Shown here one piece after another: positions 1 through 7,796 of a DNA stretch of 44,165 bases (within the stretch, counting starts at the first letter, position 1; each line of letters opens with the position of its first letter). The translations under genes were made by a program, and so were the position numbers. The notes under the pieces were generated by a model. The model was given only the letters and a program-made list of their open reading frames with translations. It did no database searches and was not told the DNA's origin. This stretch comes from a virus: the UHGV virus genome UHGV-1352852; one strand, given 5' to 3'.

Positions 1-1186
1 TGGCAAACGGTGATTTTTCTATTTGCATCGCGCACACTAATATACCACTAACCCCGTCACCGACAAATGAACCAACGGCGGAGTTGTTGTACACCCATGA
101 CGCTAAAAGCAGAGAAGACGCGCCACCCTGGCGTATAGCTACCGTTTCTGTAAATCGATACCAACCATTACCAAGCTCTGCTATATCGCTGCCGGGGGCG
201 CCTGCGTAAATAACCCCTGTCGATAAGTTAGCAACACAATCCGCGATAAACCCAGCATCATCAGCGGCGCGAAGTCTCGCATAATTATAACCATAGGCCT
301 TAGCAACGTAACTGAGAGTGTATACATCACCCTCCGCAAAAGCGGAAGACACCGATTGATATACGAGATGGCTGTCGTTTGTCTGGTTCGGGACTAGCGA
401 GAACGTACCACCGTTTAGAAATCCGTCAACTGCATCCGACACTGTTGCTCTAGTTTTAGTCCACGATGCGTCAGATAATTTCGACGATTTAATCAGGATA
501 TTACTGGACGCGGATTCCGGCGGAACACGTCCAACAGCAACCCCATCAATAAACGTAAGAGGCCATTCATTAGCGGCGGACTGCACAAGATTGCCGTTGC
601 GGTTGATGTAATAAACCTGCGGCCCGTCATACACAATGCGGCTATCAAGAGTCGACGCCAGAAGGTTAATAGGTGGATACCCGGCAGGCCCTTCATTGCT
701 CCAGATGCGCGGGAACGTCGTCACATAGTTAGCGTATATTTTCAGGAAACTACCCAGACAATCCCCGTAACAGCCGTACAAATCTGGCAGATTGTTAATC
801 AGGCACTGGTTCTCAAGGTCCTGGAACGGCGATTTCTCAGCGGTTGCCGTGAAAGTAATTGTCCAGTTAATCCCGTCTTCGGTGGACTCAGCGATGGTTG
901 ACGTGATTGTTACCTGGTAATCCTCGATACCCATGCCGAAGTCATGTGCCATCCAGAAACTTGACGCACCGCCATCGACTTTCTCAAGGAACGACAGAAA
1001 CGCCTGCCGCCCCATTGCGGATGTAATCAGGGTTACGCTCACCGGAAACACGTCGTAATATGTGTCACGGCCCTGACGCACTCCGCCACCAGCTAAATCT
1101 ACACTCCAGACGTTGTTACGTCTGGTCATTGAGTAGCCTTTTGACACAATGGGCTTAAGGCTACGCGGGAAATATAAGTCGCTCAT
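1..1186 (-). CDS. minor tail protein, 5' portion; ORF runs off the window start and continues in frame at the window end
   Basis: ATG at ~1184-1186 overlaps the tape-measure stop; manual reverse translation is stop-free down to position 1 (about 395 codons). Sits directly downstream of the tape measure in the tail module. Confidence 0.5.
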   Translation of the reverse strand, partial: MSDLYFPRSLKPIVSKGYSMTRRNNVWSVDLAGGGVRQGRDTYYDVFPVSVTLITSAMGRQAFLSFLEKVDGGASSFWMAHDFGMGIEDYQVTITSTIAESTEDGINWTITFTATAEKSPFQDLENQCLINNLPDLYGCYGDCLGSFLKIYANYVTTFPRIWSNEGPAGYPPINLLASTLDSRIVYDGPQVYYINRNGNLVQSAANEWPLTFIDGVAVGRVPPESASSNILIKSSKLSDASWTKTRATVSDAVDGFLNGGTFSLVPNQTNDSHLVYQSVSSAFAEGDVYTLSYVAKAYGYNYARLRAADDAGFIADCVANLSTGVIYAGAPGSDIAELGNGWYRFTETVAIRQGGASSLLLASWVYNNSAVGSFVGDGVSGILVCAMQIEKSPFA

Positions 1187-3498
1187 TATTTGAACCCCGG
1201 CGCATTTCTTGTGGCCTTGCGGGCCTTGCTAATCTTACTGTTGCTGTTCTGCAAAGAGGCGGCCACCTGCTCCTCGATGATGATACGCAAACGGCCTTCA
1301 TCATCTTGTTCGGTGGATACGTTGCCAATTTGAGAACTCGTGTTATTTACGATAGTAACATTAGATGGGCCGGAAGAAGACCCGTTTTGCCCCATAATTT
1401 CTTTCATCTGCTGTGCCGTGCGCACACGCGATGCCCCAGCGGGCATGATAACTTCGGGTTTACCGCGTTCGGCGATGGTGGAAGCCTGTCCTGCGGATAA
1501 CTGACCGCCCTGCTCACGCGCGGACCTGATGGCGGAAATCTGCGCCATACCCGCCCCAACTGCAGCAGCAGCGGCTACGGGGGCCAGGAACGGGCCAACT
1601 ACAGGGATAGCAGCCGTTGACTTATACGCTTCAATAGCTGCGGTGTACGTGGCTATAGTGGCCTGTACGATAGCGAATGCCTTATACGCGCCAGAAGCCT
1701 CACCCAACGCAGACCCGATGTTTGAAGCCATGTTACCGAAGGCGGTTGCCGTTGCGTCGGCACGCTTCGTAGCATACTGCTCATTGATGGCGTTAAGCGC
1801 CGCCTGGTACTGCTTCTCACTAATAAGCCCCTGCTCACGGTACTTATCCGCTACCTCCAGTTTCTGCTGTTCCTGGATGTCGAGAAGCTCAAGCTCAGTA
1901 GCGTTCTGACCCATAATCTGTGCCATGAAGTCCTCGCCTTTCTGCTGCTTTTCCTGCTGCTCTTTTCTTTTCTTATCCAGTTCTTCCTGTCTGGCCTGCT
2001 CGGCTGTGAGCATAATTTGAGTTTTGGCGTTTTCATACTGCTGCTGGCTTATCGTTCCGGCGCGGTTGAACTCCTCCAGTTTCGCCAGTTTCTGTTCTTC
2101 CGCAGCGGTAATGCGCGAAATCTCATCTCCGGTTGTGCGGTCGACAGTAGCCAGGAAATCTTCCGCCGCTTTTTTCTGTCGTTCAGCCGCCGTTTCTTCG
2201 CGTTTGGCTTGTGCCGCCAGCCGTTTCTCGTTCGATTTGGCCTCGCGGTCGGCCTTCGCTTTTTCGGTAGCGTCGATGCGAGCGATGTCTTGTTGTGCTT
2301 CCGTGTCACGCGCAGCATTATACGCGGCGATCTGTTCTTTGGTGACAGCTTCACGTTTAGCGAACGCCTGCTTATCCAGTTCAGCTTGCGCACGGATACG
2401 CTCGCGGTCACTTAAGATAGCGATTTGCTGGTTTTTGACGATAGCTTCGTTCTGTTCCTGGAATCTCTGCGTTGTTGAGTTGACGTTACGACCAAGATTC
2501 TTTTGGGCCTCCGCCGCCGCGTTTGCGGACTTCTCCGCGTTCTCCAGTGCCGTGGCGTTCTTGTTGGCATTGTCGGTCAGGCGGATAAGTTCCGGGTTCA
2601 ACTGTTTTGTATTACCGAGCCAGTCGGTAAACACATCGGCGATGCGACGGGCATTCTCGGCGGTTGGCTCTTTGTTAAACGCACTCTGCGCCGCTATCAT
2701 CTCCAGCGCCTGGTCACGGTTAACCCCAAACTTACTGCTAAGCTCTGCGATATTCTGCGCCAGCATGTTGACGCCTACGATGTTACCCTCGTAAGTGCCA
2801 CCGAGTTTTTCTAACGTGTCGCCTACATCCGCACCTTTAGAGACCAATGCATCGTACTGGCTGATAGCTGATGCTGTGGATGCCTTCCATGTCTCCCATG
2901 ATTCTGCGTCCTCACGAACAGCTTTAGCTGTTTGCTGTGCGATAAGGTCCGCGTTAGCCTTAGCCAGCGCAAGCTGAGTCTCCGCCGCTTCTCTGCTGAT
3001 TTGGGTAAGCTGGATAAGGCCGTCTGTCAGTTCGAGAGAGCCGGACGCCGTTTGCTGGAAAGTATCTTTTAGCTGTTTCTGTGCGGCTTCGAGGTCTTTT
3101 GAACTGCCTTCTGCTTCGGTTAACGATTTATACAGGACACCACCGATTGCTGACGCAAGAGCAATTACGGCCCCAAGCACCGCGCCACCAGGGCCGAAAG
3201 CACCCGCAAGCTGAGAGCCTTGTTGCCCGATTGCTACGAATGCAGACGTGCCGGACTGCAACTGGACGACCATGTCCTGCACCTGGAAGCCTACCTGCCC
3301 GGCGGCGTTACGGAATTTAGCGAAACCGTCAGAAGCCGCTTTAGACGTAGCGGAGTTTACTTTATTAACATCCGGCGTTAGTTTGTTTACGGATGTGTCC
3401 GCACGGTCTGCGGATGCCGCCATAGCGTCAAGCTGTTTAGCGGCTACATCAGCGCCTTCTGTTTTTACTCTGGCAATTAGGGAAGCCGTATCAGCCAT
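1186..3498 (-). CDS. tail tape measure protein
   Basis: Track ORF 1186..3513; ATG at 3498 (MADTAS...) has a better RBS than the TTG at 3513. About 770 aa, Ala/Gln/Lys/Glu-rich coiled-coil centre, Gly-rich hydrophobic segment; lies between the chaperone pair and the tail-tip genes. Confidence 0.8.
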   Translation of the reverse strand: MADTASLIARVKTEGADVAAKQLDAMAASADRADTSVNKLTPDVNKVNSATSKAASDGFAKFRNAAGQVGFQVQDMVVQLQSGTSAFVAIGQQGSQLAGAFGPGGAVLGAVIALASAIGGVLYKSLTEAEGSSKDLEAAQKQLKDTFQQTASGSLELTDGLIQLTQISREAAETQLALAKANADLIAQQTAKAVREDAESWETWKASTASAISQYDALVSKGADVGDTLEKLGGTYEGNIVGVNMLAQNIAELSSKFGVNRDQALEMIAAQSAFNKEPTAENARRIADVFTDWLGNTKQLNPELIRLTDNANKNATALENAEKSANAAAEAQKNLGRNVNSTTQRFQEQNEAIVKNQQIAILSDRERIRAQAELDKQAFAKREAVTKEQIAAYNAARDTEAQQDIARIDATEKAKADREAKSNEKRLAAQAKREETAAERQKKAAEDFLATVDRTTGDEISRITAAEEQKLAKLEEFNRAGTISQQQYENAKTQIMLTAEQARQEELDKKRKEQQEKQQKGEDFMAQIMGQNATELELLDIQEQQKLEVADKYREQGLISEKQYQAALNAINEQYATKRADATATAFGNMASNIGSALGEASGAYKAFAIVQATIATYTAAIEAYKSTAAIPVVGPFLAPVAAAAAVGAGMAQISAIRSAREQGGQLSAGQASTIAERGKPEVIMPAGASRVRTAQQMKEIMGQNGSSSGPSNVTIVNNTSSQIGNVSTEQDDEGRLRIIIEEQVAASLQNSNSKISKARKATRNAPGFK

Positions 3499-3763
3499 CT
3501 TCTCTGCCCTCAAATATTCCGTCTAAGCCCATGATAACCTCGGCTTCGAACAAACTTATGCCGTAACCGGCGACATCACGAAACGCTACCAAATCTTGCC
3601 ATTTGAGCGCATCGCGCGGGATTATAACGATAGTATCATCTGTTTCGCGCTGTAGGAATTTAATGGCACGGTATTTCTCGAACACGTCGATAAGAGAAAC
3701 GGGGCATTCCGGCCCCGTCGCTTCTTTCATCTGCGGTTCTTTAATCACGCCCATTGCAATCAA
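3491..3763 (-). CDS. tail assembly chaperone, -1 frame ORF (T-like extension of the G/GT pair)
   Basis: Track ORF; its frame stays open upstream to ~3871 and overlaps the end of the 3853..4269 ORF in the -1 frame, the conserved siphovirus G/GT arrangement just upstream of the tape measure. Confidence 0.45.
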   Translation of the reverse strand: MIAMGVIKEPQMKEATGPECPVSLIDVFEKYRAIKFLQRETDDTIVIIPRDALKWQDLVAFRDVAGYGISLFEAEVIMGLDGIFEGREDG

Positions 3764-3852
3764 AGCCGCCTGGTGGCCCGCCGCGATGTCGTCGAATTGC
3801 TTACGTTTGTGGCGGTCGACAAAGCACCATTGCGCAAATTCATACAGCGCTT

Positions 3853-4269
3853 TTACTTTTCCGAGAGTTTCTCACGGCTATCGGTGTGATGCTTAACTAC
3901 GGCCTCTGCCAACCCACTGTACTGGTCGAACAGGTTAGCAAGCGCCTCTTTGCTGAATGGTTCGTCGAATGACCAACCGGTGACGATTTCCACGGCAAGC
4001 TGCTTGTTCAGGTCCATCACCCGCCAGCCCTTCTCATCATTATAGCGCGCCCAGTTATTCAGCGCCTCGCACTCTTTATCTAATGGCGCAAGTTCTTCCG
4101 TAAGGCGTCGAATTGCCGTTGTGTAGGCACGGCCCGCACGAACACCAGCGTCACAATCGGGGCCGATGACCTGCAACCATTCACCGGAATCTTTACCACT
4201 GGGCAGAAGGATAGGCATTTTAGTACCGGCGGCGTGGCGGTCCGCAAAATAAAAATCAGAAAGTTTCAT
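3853..4269 (-). CDS. tail assembly chaperone (G-like)
   Basis: 138-aa ORF between the major tail and tape measure genes; a GGAAAAG run lies at its 3' end inside the -1 frame overlap. Confidence 0.5.
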   Translation of the reverse strand: MKLSDFYFADRHAAGTKMPILLPSGKDSGEWLQVIGPDCDAGVRAGRAYTTAIRRLTEELAPLDKECEALNNWARYNDEKGWRVMDLNKQLAVEIVTGWSFDEPFSKEALANLFDQYSGLAEAVVKHHTDSREKLSEK

Positions 4270-4376
4270 TCTTTAATCCTTTGGTTAAGAGGTTACTGGT
4301 TGATGGTGTTGCGCCAGACGGGAACCACCCGCTTTTCGTGTGCGACACTAGGCGCAAACTTATTCTAACACACTAC

Positions 4377-4405
4377 TTGCACACCCCAATATAATAGGGT
4401 ACTAT
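4377..4405 (+). promoter_or_regulatory. sigma70-like promoter TTGCAC-N17-TACTAT with embedded AATAG-N4-CTATT palindrome
   Basis: Member of a repeated promoter family (see findings); located ~30 nt upstream of the 4434 start codon. Confidence 0.5.
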
Positions 4406-4433
4406 TCACCTGTAACCTACTGAGGAAATAATT

Positions 4434-4760
4434 ATGCGTAAATTAGTATTAGCTCTGGGGTTTATGTCTTTTGCCGCTTTTGGGTCTCCGTGCGAACAGG
4501 TATTTAGTGAATCTGTTCTTATGACTTCTGGTGTTCTCGATAAAGCCGACCCTACTATTGTAAAGGCATTTAAGGACTCTACCGTTCGCGAGTGTGAGGC
4601 CGCTGTAGAGGTTGGTAAATCGGGCCTACCCCCGCAGGCCGTAACCTACACAGTGATACGTTCGGTAGAGAAAAACGGAGATGCTTTCTATAGCCTACTG
4701 ACAGCCACCCGTCTGCAAATGGTAATGACAGGGTGGGCGATAGGCGCAGAAAGTAAATAG
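4434..4760 (+). CDS. small secreted protein (Sec signal peptide), moron
   Basis: N-terminus MRKLVLALGFMSFAAFG is a typical signal peptide; GAGGA RBS; plus-strand gene inserted within the minus-strand tail module. Confidence 0.6.
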   Translation: MRKLVLALGFMSFAAFGSPCEQVFSESVLMTSGVLDKADPTIVKAFKDSTVRECEAAVEVGKSGLPPQAVTYTVIRSVEKNGDAFYSLLTATRLQMVMTGWAIGAESK

Positions 4761-4825
4761 TCGCCTTTATTTAAAGGAATGCACTGTGGTTAAATAGGAC
4801 AAATCCTAAACACGAGGAAGTAAGC

Positions 4826-5956
4826 ATGGCCCAGAAGAAAATAACCGACGAACAGTTACAGGAAGAATTGAACGCCGGGATGAAGATTATTGATATCGCC
4901 CGTAAATACGGCATCTCAGACCGCGTTATTCGTATCCGTAAAGCGAAGCTGGCTAAGAAAGGTGTAGGCCACGGGCGCGACGTTAGTCACCTTGTGCCGG
5001 ACGGCTACAAGATTAAAGGCACGTCGTCCCTGGTGGACGAGTTCGGCAACACTAAGTTGCAATGGGTTAAGACTGACACCGATGCTGAACGTCAGGTCGA
5101 GTTGATGAAAGCCGTAATTGAAGGCATGAAGTCAGAGATTACACCTGTTGCGCCTGTTAAAGCGACTCGCGCCAAACGCGACGATAAACTTCTCAATCTT
5201 TACACTGTGTCTGATTTCCATCTCGGTATGCTTGCATGGGCAGACGAGAGCGGCGACGACTGGGACATGAAGATTGCAGAAGACCTGTTCTCTCGATGGT
5301 TCGACGCGGCGTTTCAGAAAGCACCGGACGCGGGAACAGGAGTTATTAATCTGCTAGGAGACTTCGCGCACTTCGATAGTCTTGATGCCGTTACCCCTGA
5401 GTCGCGTCATGTGTTAGACGCCGATACTCGCTATCAGAAACTAGTTCGCTACATGATTCGTATGGTGCGTCGTGTTGTCGATATGGCGCTTGTTAAACAT
5501 CACACAGTCAAACTCTTAATAGTTCAAGGTAACCACGACCCTGTAGGCTCTGTATGGCTCGCCGAAATGTTCACGGTTTTATACTCAAACGACAGCCGAG
5601 TGATTGTCGATACGTCACCAGACGTTTACAAGATGGTGCAACACGGCAAAACGACGTTGTTCTTTCACCACGGGCATAAATCGCGCTTCGATGCTATCGA
5701 ACCGGTTATGATTGCCAAGTTCCGCAAAGCGTTCGGCGAGAGTGTTTACAGCTACGCCCACGTAGGCCATCTGCACCACCAGAAGATTGTAGAAAGCCGT
5801 AACATGGTTGTTGAGCAACACCGCACCTTAGCGGCTAAAGACGCCTACGCCTCCCGCGGCGGATGGATGTCGGGCCGCAGTGCTAATGTAATTACTTATA
5901 GCGCCGAATATGGTGAGGTCGCACGTTTAACTATTTCACCGGAGATGCTGGGATGA
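4826..5956 (+). CDS. HTH domain fused to a calcineurin-like metallophosphoesterase
   Basis: N-terminal HTH (IIDIARKYGISDRVIRIRKAKL); ordered metallophosphoesterase motifs DFH, GDFAHFD, GNHD, FHHGH, GHLHH; GAGGAAG RBS. Confidence 0.75.
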   Translation: MAQKKITDEQLQEELNAGMKIIDIARKYGISDRVIRIRKAKLAKKGVGHGRDVSHLVPDGYKIKGTSSLVDEFGNTKLQWVKTDTDAERQVELMKAVIEGMKSEITPVAPVKATRAKRDDKLLNLYTVSDFHLGMLAWADESGDDWDMKIAEDLFSRWFDAAFQKAPDAGTGVINLLGDFAHFDSLDAVTPESRHVLDADTRYQKLVRYMIRMVRRVVDMALVKHHTVKLLIVQGNHDPVGSVWLAEMFTVLYSNDSRVIVDTSPDVYKMVQHGKTTLFFHHGHKSRFDAIEPVMIAKFRKAFGESVYSYAHVGHLHHQKIVESRNMVVEQHRTLAAKDAYASRGGWMSGRSANVITYSAEYGEVARLTISPEMLG

Positions 5957-6183
5957 CTTCAAAATACAACCGAACAATGACAAACATTCACGGCAGCACT
6001 ATGACAGTAGACGTTTATGATGTTCTCCGTGCTTTCGATATCCGTGACCCGGCGCTACAGCACGCATTGAAGAAGCTGTTGTGTATGGGCCTGCGCGGTC
6101 ACAAGGATACCGGAACAGACTTAGCGGAAGCAATTGAAAGTCTGGAGAAGTTACGGGAATACCGAAGCAATATTGATGAGTAA
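5953..6183 (+). CDS. small helical phage protein (possibly DUF3310-like, from recollection)
   Basis: 76-aa ORF whose start overlaps the preceding stop (ATGA); segment VDVYDVLRAFDIRDPALQHALKKLLCMGLRG resembles small lambdoid-phage proteins. Confidence 0.45.
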   Translation: MTSKYNRTMTNIHGSTMTVDVYDVLRAFDIRDPALQHALKKLLCMGLRGHKDTGTDLAEAIESLEKLREYRSNIDE

Positions 6184-6210: not shown

Positions 6211-7377
6211 TTATGCGTAGGTGATACGCTGAATAACAATAGACGACTGGTACTGGTTGCCAGTAGCCTGGCCTTCAATAGACTGAGTGATTGACTCAGG
6301 TCCGCCAATCTCAGGTGTAACCGCTGTCAGTTCCGCACGTTTTAAACTGAAAGACATAGCCCCGTTTACCCCCGCCAGAATAGAGTTAATCTCTACCTGC
6401 TGTTCGTTGATAAACTTCTGAATCATAGCCATGTCGTACAGCTTACCAGAGATAGAGAAGGTGTTAGCCGCGCGGCTACGCTCCACAAACGCCACGTTAG
6501 TGTTGCCGAGTTCGAACTGAGCGGACGCGCTGTTGTCGTTGGTGATGGCCAGGCTGTCGCAGCGCAACGGTGTTGAGCCATCGAACACAGAAACGTCAAC
6601 CGAAGAGAACGGCTCGTCACCAAACGTGACAGAGGAGAAATCAGAACCTGTCGGCTGCGTGGCGAGAATCTCCTGACTGCGACCGATGAACGGGAAGCTG
6701 CCAGTTACCATCGCGTTAACGGCCTGCTCAATAGTGAAGCCAGAAACTTCCACGCCTTTGGTCAGCGTGTACGCGTCGGCCCCACCACACTGGCCTTTGT
6801 ACCAGGTGAGAATAGAGAACGTCTTACACTGGCTACCGGTTTCCAGCTTATCGCCAGTTTTAGCCGCAGTAGTGGCGGTCTCAGTGGTCAGAGTATGTTG
6901 GGTACCAGCACCGGTGACAACTGTCGCACTTACCTCGGTTACGATAAACGGTTTGGCGTTATCGCCAGTTAAATCGGTGAACGCGATTAAGTCCCCCACT
7001 TCAACGCCGTCAGAAATAAAGCTACCTTCTGCACGGGTGAATGTCTTTCCCGCCGGTGCGACGGTAATAGACAGCCCGGACAGAGAAACGCCGGATTGCC
7101 ACGTAGAGCCTAAAGCCCCGGCTAACCAGTCGTCCTGGCTTTTCGAGCTAAGCTCAATAGCGTATTCTCCGCTAACCTGCTTGTTGCCGGTGCGGATGGA
7201 TGTAGTTTCACGGCTGCCGTCAAGTTCATTGGAGGTCAGCGTGTCGCGGGTAATGGCCGGAACACCGCCCGTATTGCGCAACGGCGACCATACCGGGTTA
7301 TCCGGTGTTACGCCCGGGGTCACTTCCGCCACATAGAATTGCGCGGTATTCGCGCCCTTAAAAGGAGTTGTAGCCAT
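6211..7377 (-). CDS. major tail protein (tube)
   Basis: Track ORF 6211..7383; ATG at 7377 preceded by AAGAGG. Thr/Ser/Gly-rich 388-aa protein positioned before the chaperone pair. Confidence 0.5.
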   Translation of the reverse strand: MATTPFKGANTAQFYVAEVTPGVTPDNPVWSPLRNTGGVPAITRDTLTSNELDGSRETTSIRTGNKQVSGEYAIELSSKSQDDWLAGALGSTWQSGVSLSGLSITVAPAGKTFTRAEGSFISDGVEVGDLIAFTDLTGDNAKPFIVTEVSATVVTGAGTQHTLTTETATTAAKTGDKLETGSQCKTFSILTWYKGQCGGADAYTLTKGVEVSGFTIEQAVNAMVTGSFPFIGRSQEILATQPTGSDFSSVTFGDEPFSSVDVSVFDGSTPLRCDSLAITNDNSASAQFELGNTNVAFVERSRAANTFSISGKLYDMAMIQKFINEQQVEINSILAGVNGAMSFSLKRAELTAVTPEIGGPESITQSIEGQATGNQYQSSIVIQRITYA

Positions 7378-7379
7378 AT

Positions 7380-7796
7380 TCACAGCCTCTTGGTGAATGC
7401 AATAAAGTTAATTGACAATGGCCGTTTGGCCCATCCGTTTTCTACAATCAGCGGCCCCAGGCTAACCGATTGAACCTCGGCGCAGATGTCGTTACGTGAA
7501 AATGACTTACCTGCTTTAAACGCCGTGTTAAGTAAGTCTGCCATTTTATTGATTGGCGCGCTACCTTTCACCGATGCGTAGTTAATGTCGACCTGATAGA
7601 TACCAGAGCGTTGTTCCGTGAAGAACAAATCCGCCTGCTCGGTATCCGCGAGTAGCATGTAACTCGCCAGATACGGGGTATCGGTTGACGTCGGCGCGTC
7701 GATGTTTTCAAGTGCAACCTTGATGCCGTTGGCGGTTCCGAAGGCTACCAGCGGCACATCGAACGCTTTTGTTAAGTCCTCAAAGTAGCCCATCAT
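7380..7796 (-). CDS. tail completion / head-tail joining protein
   Basis: 138-aa ORF in a run of translationally coupled small genes between capsid and major tail genes. Confidence 0.4.
   Translation of the reverse strand: MMGYFEDLTKAFDVPLVAFGTANGIKVALENIDAPTSTDTPYLASYMLLADTEQADLFFTEQRSGIYQVDINYASVKGSAPINKMADLLNTAFKAGKSFSRNDICAEVQSVSLGPLIVENGWAKRPLSINFIAFTKRL

What the first reader, a model, noticed from the sequence alone, without database searches (positions are those of the whole stretch)
3491..4269. Probable programmed -1 frameshift joining the two tail-chaperone ORFs
The 3853..4269 ORF ends with ...CTC TCG GAA AAG TAA. The downstream ORF frame is the -1 frame relative to it and is open from ~3871, giving an 18-nt overlap that contains the run GGAAAAG. 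This is the conserved G/GT chaperone arrangement upstream of tape-measure genes, but the heptamer is not a canonical X XXY YYZ site, so the exact slip site is uncertain.
Basis: partly seen in the sequence, partly recalled or inferred. Interest (0 to 1): 0.4.

Follow-up and report, generated by a model that had tools for sequence, protein, structure and literature searches.

The report
Tail chaperone G/GT -1 frameshift
This is the ordinary tail-assembly-chaperone frameshift of long-tailed phages, here in a Kagunavirus-type E. coli phage and already annotated in close relatives; the only unusual detail is that the slip site is a short A_AAG directly against the stop codon instead of a classical heptamer.

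Summary
On the minus strand, a 138-codon chaperone ORF (4269..3853) ends ...TCG GAA AAG TAA. The -1 frame is open from 3871 to 3491, just upstream of the tape-measure gene. The window is a Kagunavirus (Guernseyvirinae) genome.

Both halves hit tail-chaperone families, and one PHROG profile of 259 positions spans both halves as a fusion. The first 31 codons of the -1 frame have no start codon, yet show clear coding-type conservation. GenBank records of relatives (fFiEco02, K1ind2, Shemara) already annotate the joined frameshift product.

Comparison of 69 distinct relatives settles the slip site. A_AAG is invariant. The codon before it varies (GAA, GCA, GTA, TCA, AAA, GGA) but always ends in A. 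The zero-frame stop always follows directly, as TAG or TAA and never TGA.

The likely mechanism is tRNA-Lys slipping from AAG to AAA, probably helped by the adjacent stop codon. This would give a 259-aa GT protein at a low level. I found no conserved downstream RNA structure.

A nearly invariant GCGCTGT five bases after the stop remains unexplained.

Separately, a covarying int-alpA-like RNA structure sits in the operon leader.

Low novelty.

The parts
3853..4269 (-). G-like tail assembly chaperone ORF (138 aa, 15.6 kDa), the zero-frame product
   Evidence: Translation. PF08748 Phage_TAC_4 at E 1e-08. phrog_15027 positions 1-138 of 259 at E 1e-65. Mass.
3856..3859 (-). A_AAG slip tetramer: the last sense codon AAG (Lys138) plus the preceding A
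   Evidence: Invariant in 69 of 69 distinct junction contexts. The preceding codon varies (GAA 49, GCA 13, GTA 4, TCA 1, AAA 1, GGA 1) but always ends in A. AAG is the only codon used for this Lys in 43 sequences.
3856..3862 (-).
   Evidence: One relative (L042) has the lambda-type G_GGA_AAG and one (L133) the dnaX-type A_AAA_AAG at the same position.
3853..3855 (-). Zero-frame stop TAA directly abutting the slip site (candidate 'shifty stop')
   Evidence: A stop follows AAG directly in 69 of 69 contexts: TAG 47, TAA 22, TGA 0. The window's own genes use TAA 33, TGA 19, TAG 9.
3844..3850 (-). GCGCTGT, a nearly invariant element 5 nt (stop codon plus 2) after the slip site; it encodes Ala-Leu in the T frame; role unexplained
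   Evidence: GCGCTGT 60 of 69, GCGTTGT 7, ACGCTGT 1, GCCCTGC 1. GCG and CTG are single-codon columns, unlike 44 other invariant residues.
3872..3874 (-). TGA that closes the -1 frame upstream; it sets the 5' limit for any shift in this genome
   Evidence: Its position varies among relatives, giving overlaps of 19 to 208 nt.
3491..3856 (-). T extension read in the -1 frame after the slip (121 codons plus stop, beginning GTA AAA GCG CTG); GT fusion is 259 aa, 29.3 kDa
   Evidence: PF23812 Phage_TAC_18 at E 9.5e-18. phrog_15027 positions 138-259 at E 2.7e-62. Codon-position entropy 0.58/0.58/1.27 over the first 31 codons, which contain no ATG/GTG/TTG.
1186..3498 (-). Tape measure protein gene; its ATG (3498..3496) overlaps the T stop (ATGGCTGA)
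   Evidence: phrog_1538 at E 1.9e-198. Annotated start in relatives. Sequence.

Best explanation
A programmed -1 ribosomal frameshift at the very end of the tail-chaperone gene. Most ribosomes terminate at TAA and make the 138-aa G protein. A minority slip back one base and read on in the -1 frame (GUA AAA GCG CUG ...), making a 259-aa G-T fusion that ends 5 nt inside the tape-measure gene. In the slip, the host's single tRNA-Lys (anticodon UUU), paired to the last sense codon AAG, re-pairs to the overlapping AAA. By homology with lambda gpG/gpGT, the G part would coat the tape measure protein and the T part would recruit the tail tube protein, so a low fixed GT:G ratio is needed for tail assembly. 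Shown here: the ORF geometry, the family membership of both halves, coding-type selection on the start-less part of the T frame, and nucleotide-level selection on A_AAG plus the adjacent stop. Inferred: that the fusion is actually made, its amount, and whether the slip happens with tRNA-Lys in the P site while the stop codon waits in the A site (the 'shifty stop' version, which I favour at about 60:40) or in the A site as in NNA_AAG hexanucleotide sites.
For: - **Family hits.** G hits Phage_TAC_4 and T hits Phage_TAC_18. One 259-position PHROG (15027, 'tail assembly chaperone') matches G at positions 1-138 and the T frame at 138-259, so fused proteins with this junction already exist in databases.
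- **Gene order.** The tape-measure gene follows with an overlapping start.
- **No start codon.** The first ATG/GTG/TTG in the T frame is 92 nt after the G stop. Those 31 codons still show 3-periodic conservation of 0.58/0.58/1.27, the same as the rest of T and of G.
- **Conservation across the subfamily.** 489 of 502 matching phage records cover at least 80% of the fusion; all but one of the 60 rows displayed show that match as two tblastn pieces.
- **Slip site.** A_AAG is present in 69 of 69 distinct contexts, across six different preceding codons that all end in A, and a stop codon is always adjacent.
- **Codon choice.** Of 48 invariant degenerate residues in G and T, only K(AAG), V(GTA), A(GCG) and L(CTG), all within 15 nt of the junction, use a single codon.
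- **Stop choice.** TAG is over-used and TGA absent. A rough binomial over 13 clades that I grouped by eye gives 1.3e-5 and 0.008.
- **Known shiftiness.** A_AAG is the most shift-prone -1 tetramer in E. coli, reaching 5.6% with a stimulator (PMC4066793). NNA_AAG sites are used by IS1222 and occur in B. subtilis cdd (PMC5009743).
- **Existing annotation.** Joined 'frameshift product' CDSs exist in fFiEco02, Shemara and K1ind2.
Against: - There are no protein data for this phage or, as far as I could find, for any Guernseyvirinae chaperone.
- Without a stimulator, A_AAG was at about background in reporter assays (0.147% versus 0.112%). I found no conserved downstream RNA structure and no conserved upstream Shine-Dalgarno-like element (by eye). 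A stimulator therefore has to be assumed: the stop codon and/or GCGCUGU.
- One published genome note on a relative states that there is 'no canonical slippery sequence' (PMC6776780). Many records annotate T as a separate gene starting at the conserved CTG/TTG.
Confidence: 0.88

Rival explanations
1. T is made as a separate 118-aa protein by termination-reinitiation. Ribosomes finishing G at TAA restart at the conserved CUG (3847..3845), 5 nt after the stop codon, with no frameshift.
For: The Leu codon at this position is always YTG (CTG 62, TTG 7 of 69), whereas other invariant Leu columns use 3-6 codons. Its distance from the stop is fixed. Annotators start T there in Bas75, Ent1, Eta and Shashou. 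phrog_4557 (118 positions) corresponds to that product.
Against: It does not explain why A_AAG is invariant at synonymous positions across six preceding codons, nor why AAG is never AAA. CUG is a very poor bacterial start, and no lineage has ATG or GTG there. By the lambda model (PMC5009743), T works only when tethered to G. It could coexist with frameshifting as a minor route.
Confidence: 0.07
2. This is classical tandem slippage on the whole heptamer G_GAA_AAG. tRNA-Glu moves GAA to GGA and tRNA-Lys moves AAG to AAA. The adjacent stop has no mechanistic role and merely marks the end of a minimal overlap.
For: Re-pairing of tRNA-Glu on GGA would keep G:C, G:U and A:U contacts (inference). Two lineages have true heptamers at the same place, G_GGA_AAG in L042 and A_AAA_AAG in L133. 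NNA_AAG sites work with the Lys codon in the A site (PMC5009743).
Against: Relatives with GCA, GTA or TCA before AAG, and with A, C or G as the first base, cannot re-pair the P-site tRNA well, yet keep the arrangement. This model leaves unexplained the invariant stop position, the excess of TAG and the absence of TGA. It gives the same protein product, so it is a rival only for the mechanism.
Confidence: 0.3
3. Transcriptional slippage: RNA polymerase adds or drops an A in the A-run, so a fraction of mRNAs encode the fusion directly.
For: The junction contains a short A run (AAAA). The product would be nearly the same.
Against: Productive transcriptional slippage is known for runs of about 7-9 or more identical bases (established knowledge; reviewed in PMC5009743). 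Here the run is 4, and only 3 in relatives with GCA, GTA or TCA.
Confidence: 0.02

Closest known systems
Phage lambda gpG/gpGT tail assembly chaperone frameshift (Levin, Hendrix and Casjens 1993; Xu, Hendrix and Duda 2004, 2013, 2014, as cited in PMC5009743)
   Same: Two overlapping ORFs in the 0 and -1 frames directly upstream of the tape-measure gene. The slip ends on A_AAG read by tRNA-Lys. The T stop overlaps the tape-measure start. G and GT sizes are similar.
   Different: Lambda uses the canonical G_GGA_AAG, placed 15 nt (5 codons) before the G stop. Here the site is G_GAA_AAG and abuts the stop. The G and T proteins belong to different Pfam families from lambda's, with no detectable sequence similarity tested here. 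Here three opposite-strand genes separate the tube gene from G.
Annotated chaperone frameshift products in Guernseyvirinae (fFiEco02 MT711523, K1ind2 NC_041898, Shemara NC_069152)
   Same: Same genes, same junction sequence (GGAAAAG TAR nnGCGCTGT) and same fusion length of 259-260 aa.
   Different: None in substance. Those are annotations without experimental support. Most other records, and the Shashou paper, leave T as a separate or hypothetical gene.
NNA_AAG hexanucleotide -1 sites (IS1222 G_CGA_AAG; B. subtilis cdd A_CGA_AAG) and the A_AAG tetramer studied in E. coli
   Same: Non-heptameric site in which only tRNA-Lys can re-pair cognately (AAG to AAA). Low-level frameshifting in bacteria (PMC5009743, PMC4066793).
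   Different: Those cases rely on a downstream structure or an upstream Shine-Dalgarno-like element. Here neither is conserved, and a stop codon sits directly 3'.
'Shifty stop' recoding (prfB/RF2 CUU_UGA, antizyme)
   Same: A zero-frame stop codon in the A site next to a slippery P-site codon. Slow termination competes with slippage (PMC5009743, PMC10885494).
   Different: Those are +1 shifts with a regulatory feedback role. This is a -1 shift that sets a fixed product ratio, and the role of the stop is inferred only from conservation.

Membership tests
gpG/gpGT-type tail assembly chaperone with programmed frameshift | Pair of ORFs immediately upstream of the tape-measure gene | tested here: met
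   G 4269..3853, T frame to 3491, tape-measure ATG at 3498.
gpG/gpGT-type tail assembly chaperone with programmed frameshift | Second ORF in the -1 (or +1) frame, overlapping the end of the first and lacking its own start near the overlap | tested here: met
   -1 frame, 19-nt overlap, first ATG/GTG/TTG 92 nt downstream.
gpG/gpGT-type tail assembly chaperone with programmed frameshift | Slippery sequence within the overlap | tested here: inconclusive
   There is no X_XXY_YYZ heptamer. An A_AAG tetramer is present and invariant in 69 of 69 relatives, and is shift-prone in E. coli only with a stimulator.
gpG/gpGT-type tail assembly chaperone with programmed frameshift | Sequence membership of chaperone protein families | tested here: met
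   PF08748 at 35.9 bits (cut-off 21.1), PF23812 at 64.6 bits (cut-off 27), phrog_15027 spanning both halves.
gpG/gpGT-type tail assembly chaperone with programmed frameshift | Located directly downstream of the major tail (tube) gene | tested here: not met
   The tube gene is at 7383..6211. Three plus-strand genes (4434..6183) and a promoter/leader region lie between it and G. This is a usual, not obligatory, feature.
gpG/gpGT-type tail assembly chaperone with programmed frameshift | Fusion protein actually produced at a few percent of G and required for tail assembly | not testable with these tools
   Needs western blot, mass spectrometry or genetics. I found no such data in the paper searches.
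Stop-codon-assisted ('shifty stop') frameshift site | Zero-frame stop codon immediately 3' of the slippery codon, conserved in position | tested here: met
   69 of 69 contexts; TAG 47, TAA 22, TGA 0.
Stop-codon-assisted ('shifty stop') frameshift site | Frameshift efficiency depends on the stop codon or on release-factor level | not testable with these tools
   Requires reporter assays with stop-to-sense substitutions and RF1 titration.
Structure-stimulated -1 frameshift (IS3/IS911/dnaX type) | Conserved stem-loop or pseudoknot 5-9 nt downstream, or a Shine-Dalgarno-like element 10-14 nt upstream | tested here: not met
   RNAalifold consensus is -0.1 kcal/mol with no covarying pair. GCGCUGU is no more paired than in codon-shuffled controls. 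No conserved Shine-Dalgarno-like element in the aligned upstream sequences (by eye).

The most novel reading that the evidence does not exclude
A_AAG_UAR followed by nnGCGYUG is a self-contained, structure-independent -1 frameshift cassette. Slow termination (RF1-read stops only) and a conserved single-stranded 3' sequence would together stimulate tRNA-Lys slippage. It may be combined with a low level of reinitiation at the conserved CUG, so that both GT and free T are made. That would be a distinct, experimentally untested class of bacterial -1 signal, shared by several hundred Guernseyvirinae genomes.
Probability: 0.25. Interest if true: 0.45.

Novelty: already known. Interest (0 to 1): 0.2.

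Why it matters
For annotation, the two ORFs should be joined as one frameshifted CDS of 259 aa. Most database records of this subfamily still list T as a separate or hypothetical gene, and one paper states that no slippery sequence exists. The comparative result (A_AAG plus an adjacent TAG/TAA, never TGA) gives annotators a concrete rule. It also gives recoding researchers a natural, simple test case for stop-assisted -1 slippage. Beyond that it is the expected tail-assembly device and changes no general picture.

Tried and rejected
- **Downstream stimulatory RNA structure.** Single-sequence folds of 15 representatives show different partners for GCGCUGU. A long-range pairing about 81 nt after the stop codon appears in only 6 of 15. 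RNAalifold finds no consensus. The pairing probability of GCGCUGU is not above codon-shuffled controls. Rejected as a conserved feature.
- **Pairing of GCGCUGU with E. coli 16S rRNA.** The best duplex is -9.8 kcal/mol, weaker than the mean for shuffled 7-mers (-10.6), and there is no exact complement. Rejected.
- **Upstream Shine-Dalgarno-like stimulator.** Nothing is conserved 10-14 nt upstream (by eye).
- **Known frameshift-element RNA families.** Rfam gave no hit at the junction.
- **Solved structures and NCBIfam.** No relatives by sequence.
- **Close protein homologues.** The large protein search returned only G-type proteins of 50-65% identity and no fusions. Fusions were found instead through PHROGs and GenBank annotation.
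- **Literature.** Kagunavirus plus frameshift gave nothing. Xu et al. 2004 and the Jerseyvirinae paper (PMID 25663216) are not held.
- **G/T mosaicism as a reason for the conserved junction.** G and T identities to the window run roughly in parallel (44-67% and 50-57%), which is not informative.
Full report
**What the window is.** The 1.2 kb around the finding is 94-99% identical to many Escherichia phages of the genus Kagunavirus (Guernseyvirinae), for example BUCT789, Bas70-76, XY2 and fFiEco02. In all, 117 records match at high identity. The relevant genes are on the minus strand.

**Check of the observation.**
- The ORF 4269..3853 encodes 138 aa and ends ...AAA CTC TCG GAA AAG TAA.
- The next frame is -1 relative to it. 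It is closed by TGA at 3874..3872, open from 3871, and ends at TGA 3493..3491.
- The overlap is 19 nt including the stop codon.
- GGAAAAG lies at 3862..3856 and reads G_GAA_AAG in the zero frame, which is not a canonical X_XXY_YYZ.
- The first ATG/GTG/TTG of the downstream frame is TTG at 3763, 92 nt after the G stop.

**What the genes are.**
- G matches Pfam Phage_TAC_4, and the -1 frame matches Phage_TAC_18.
- PHROG 15027 ('tail assembly chaperone', 259 positions) matches G over positions 1-138 and the -1 frame over positions 138-259. Fused proteins with exactly this junction (...SEK-VKALY...) are therefore already in databases.
- The next gene (ATG 3498, overlapping the T stop as ATGGCTGA) is the tape measure protein, phrog_1538 at E 2e-198.
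- The tail tube gene (7383..6211) and tail terminator lie upstream. They are separated from G by three plus-strand genes (4434..6183) and a divergent promoter region.

**Is the -1 frame translated from the junction?** In 43 distinct IMG/VR relatives (G 44-100% identical), the -1 frame is open for 121-122 codons, while the +1 frame closes quickly. I built codon alignments from these. The first 31 T-frame codons have no start codon in this genome, yet their entropies are 0.58/0.58/1.27 at codon positions 1/2/3. The rest of T gives 0.77/0.54/1.25 and G gives 0.64/0.63/1.29. This stretch is therefore under protein-coding selection in the T frame, which requires entry from the G frame. In the phage collection, 489 of 502 matching records cover at least 80% of the fusion. 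All but one of the 60 rows shown list two tblastn pieces, as expected for two frames.

**Where is the slip?** I pooled 69 distinct junction contexts from two IMG/VR scans plus Shemara, Ent1, Eta and K1ind2.

| Feature | Result in 69 contexts |
|---|---|
| A_AAG as the last four sense bases of G | 69 of 69 |
| Codon before AAG | GAA 49, GCA 13, GTA 4, TCA 1, AAA 1, GGA 1 (all end in A) |
| Zero-frame stop directly after AAG | 69 of 69 (TAG 47, TAA 22, TGA 0) |

- The A before AAG is a synonymous third position in the G frame and lies upstream of any T-frame translation. Its invariance across six codon families therefore reflects selection on the nucleotide, that is, on A_AAG.
- TGA never occurs, although GTG would still encode the conserved Val in the T frame. 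The window's own long ORFs end TAA 33, TGA 19, TAG 9. Over about 13 clades that I grouped by eye, the TAG excess and TGA absence give rough binomial values of 1.3e-5 and 0.008. The clades are not fully independent.
- Of 48 invariant residues with degenerate codons in G and T, only four use a single codon in all 43 sequences. These are K(AAG), V(GTA), A(GCG) and L(CTG), all within 15 nt of the junction.
- More distant relatives (G 30-35% identical) instead have ordinary heptamers further upstream: T_TTT_TTC in L049 and A_AAT_TTT in L052.
- Lambda's G_GGA_AAG sits 15 nt before its G stop.

**Mechanism.**
- A_AAG is the most shift-prone -1 tetramer in E. coli, because the single tRNA-Lys(UUU) re-pairs cognately on AAA. 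With the IS3 pseudoknot it gave 5.6%, but without a stimulator it was near background (PMC4066793).
- NNA_AAG sites are used by IS1222 and occur in B. subtilis cdd. Their efficiency depends on the 5' codon's tRNA (PMC5009743).
- Some stimulator is therefore expected here. I found no conserved downstream structure: RNAalifold gives -0.1 kcal/mol, and there is no excess pairing of the conserved 3' element. There is no special complementarity to 16S rRNA, no conserved upstream Shine-Dalgarno-like element (by eye) and no Rfam frameshift element.
- The one conserved candidate is the stop codon itself. With tRNA-Lys on AAG in the P site and UAA/UAG in the A site, slow termination would give time for the -1 slip, after which GUA (Val) is read. 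This is a 'shifty stop' in the sense of Weiss et al. 1987 (cited in PMC5009743).
- The alternative is A-site slippage as in hexanucleotide sites. It gives the same protein and cannot be excluded.
- The phage has no tRNA genes, so host tRNA-Lys is used.
- By homology with lambda, G binds the tape measure protein and the T domain recruits the tube protein (PMC5009743). This function is inferred, not tested.

**Unexplained residue.** GCGCTGT, 5 nt (stop codon plus 2) after the slip site, is present in 60 of 69 contexts (GCGTTGT 7, ACGCTGT 1, GCCCTGC 1). Its Leu codon is always YTG. This might mark a weak restart codon. Several annotators begin T at this CTG/TTG. I keep that as a minor rival or a parallel route. 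It does not explain the A_AAG conservation.

**State of knowledge.** Joined 'frameshift product' CDSs are annotated in fFiEco02 (94.5% identical here), K1ind2 (RefSeq) and Shemara. Most other records list T as a separate or hypothetical gene. The Shashou announcement says there is 'no canonical slippery sequence' (PMC6776780), although Shashou has the same G_GAA_AAG_TAG junction. I found no experimental demonstration for this subfamily. The finding is therefore a known, annotated feature. The comparative definition of the signal is a modest refinement.

**Side observation.**
- The 5' leader of the G operon (4358..4294, minus strand, 25 nt before the ATG) matches Rfam int-alpA (RF02996) just below its gathering score (34.1 versus 35.8 bits; E 9e-6 locally and 0.002 for the whole window).
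- Its three helices covary in 16 relatives: 6 pairs with double changes, and a covariation score of 0.281 against 0.115 in shuffles (0 of 500 shuffles as high). Slid controls reach at most 0.112.
- A model built from the relatives finds one copy in the whole window and one in the 20-kb Shashou segment, and in every source where it is found the copy lies just upstream of G. These sources include Kagunavirus, Jerseyvirus and Cornellvirus members.
- Its function is unknown.

Noticed in passing
window 4294..4358, minus strand (leader of the G/GT/tape-measure operon): A structured RNA 25 nt upstream of the G start matches Rfam int-alpA (RF02996) at 34.1 bits, just under the gathering score of 35.8, and is the only Rfam hit in the window. 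Its three helices show compensatory changes in 16 relatives. A custom model finds one copy in the window and one in the 20-kb Shashou segment, and every copy found lies just upstream of G, across Kagunavirus, Jerseyvirus and Cornellvirus. Function unknown; a 5' stabiliser or an antitermination-type element are guesses.
   Followed up: partly
window 4365..4373, minus strand, and the alignment: A conserved extended -10-like TGTTAGAAT lies just upstream of the leader RNA, so the transcript probably starts at the base of the outer stem. The consensus scan instead flagged a second candidate (GTTACA-17-TATATT, 4416..4388) and a plus-strand site for the divergent genes.
   Followed up: no
window 4434..6183, plus strand: Three opposite-strand genes interrupt the usual tube-chaperone-tape-measure order: phrog_14165 of unknown function, a 376-aa metallophosphoesterase/'DNA repair exonuclease' (phrog_704), and a 76-aa ORF. 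Relatives carry a superinfection-immunity gene in this slot.
   Followed up: no
window 3844..3850, minus strand: GCGCTGT, 5 nt (stop codon plus 2) after the slip site, is nearly invariant (60 of 69) at synonymous positions, with the Leu codon always CTG or TTG. Neither RNA structure nor 16S pairing explains it.
   Followed up: yes
window 3698..3719, both strands (inside the T coding part): A GC-rich 7-8 bp hairpin (GACGGGGCC GGAATG CCCCGTT), flagged as terminator-like, lies about 137 nt downstream of the slip site. That is too far to be a frameshift stimulator. Its conservation was not examined.
   Followed up: no
L042 and L133 (IMG/VR relatives), junction position: Two lineages have canonical heptamers at the same stop-adjacent place: G_GGA_AAG_TAG (lambda type) and A_AAA_AAG_TAG (dnaX type).
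   Followed up: partly
L007/L062: IMGVR_UViG_3300045988_018079: This IMG/VR contig has exactly the window's length (44,165 bp) but differs from it by at least one base near the junction (CGC versus CGT). That change creates the window's -1-frame TGA and shortens the overlap from 25 to 19 nt.
   Followed up: no
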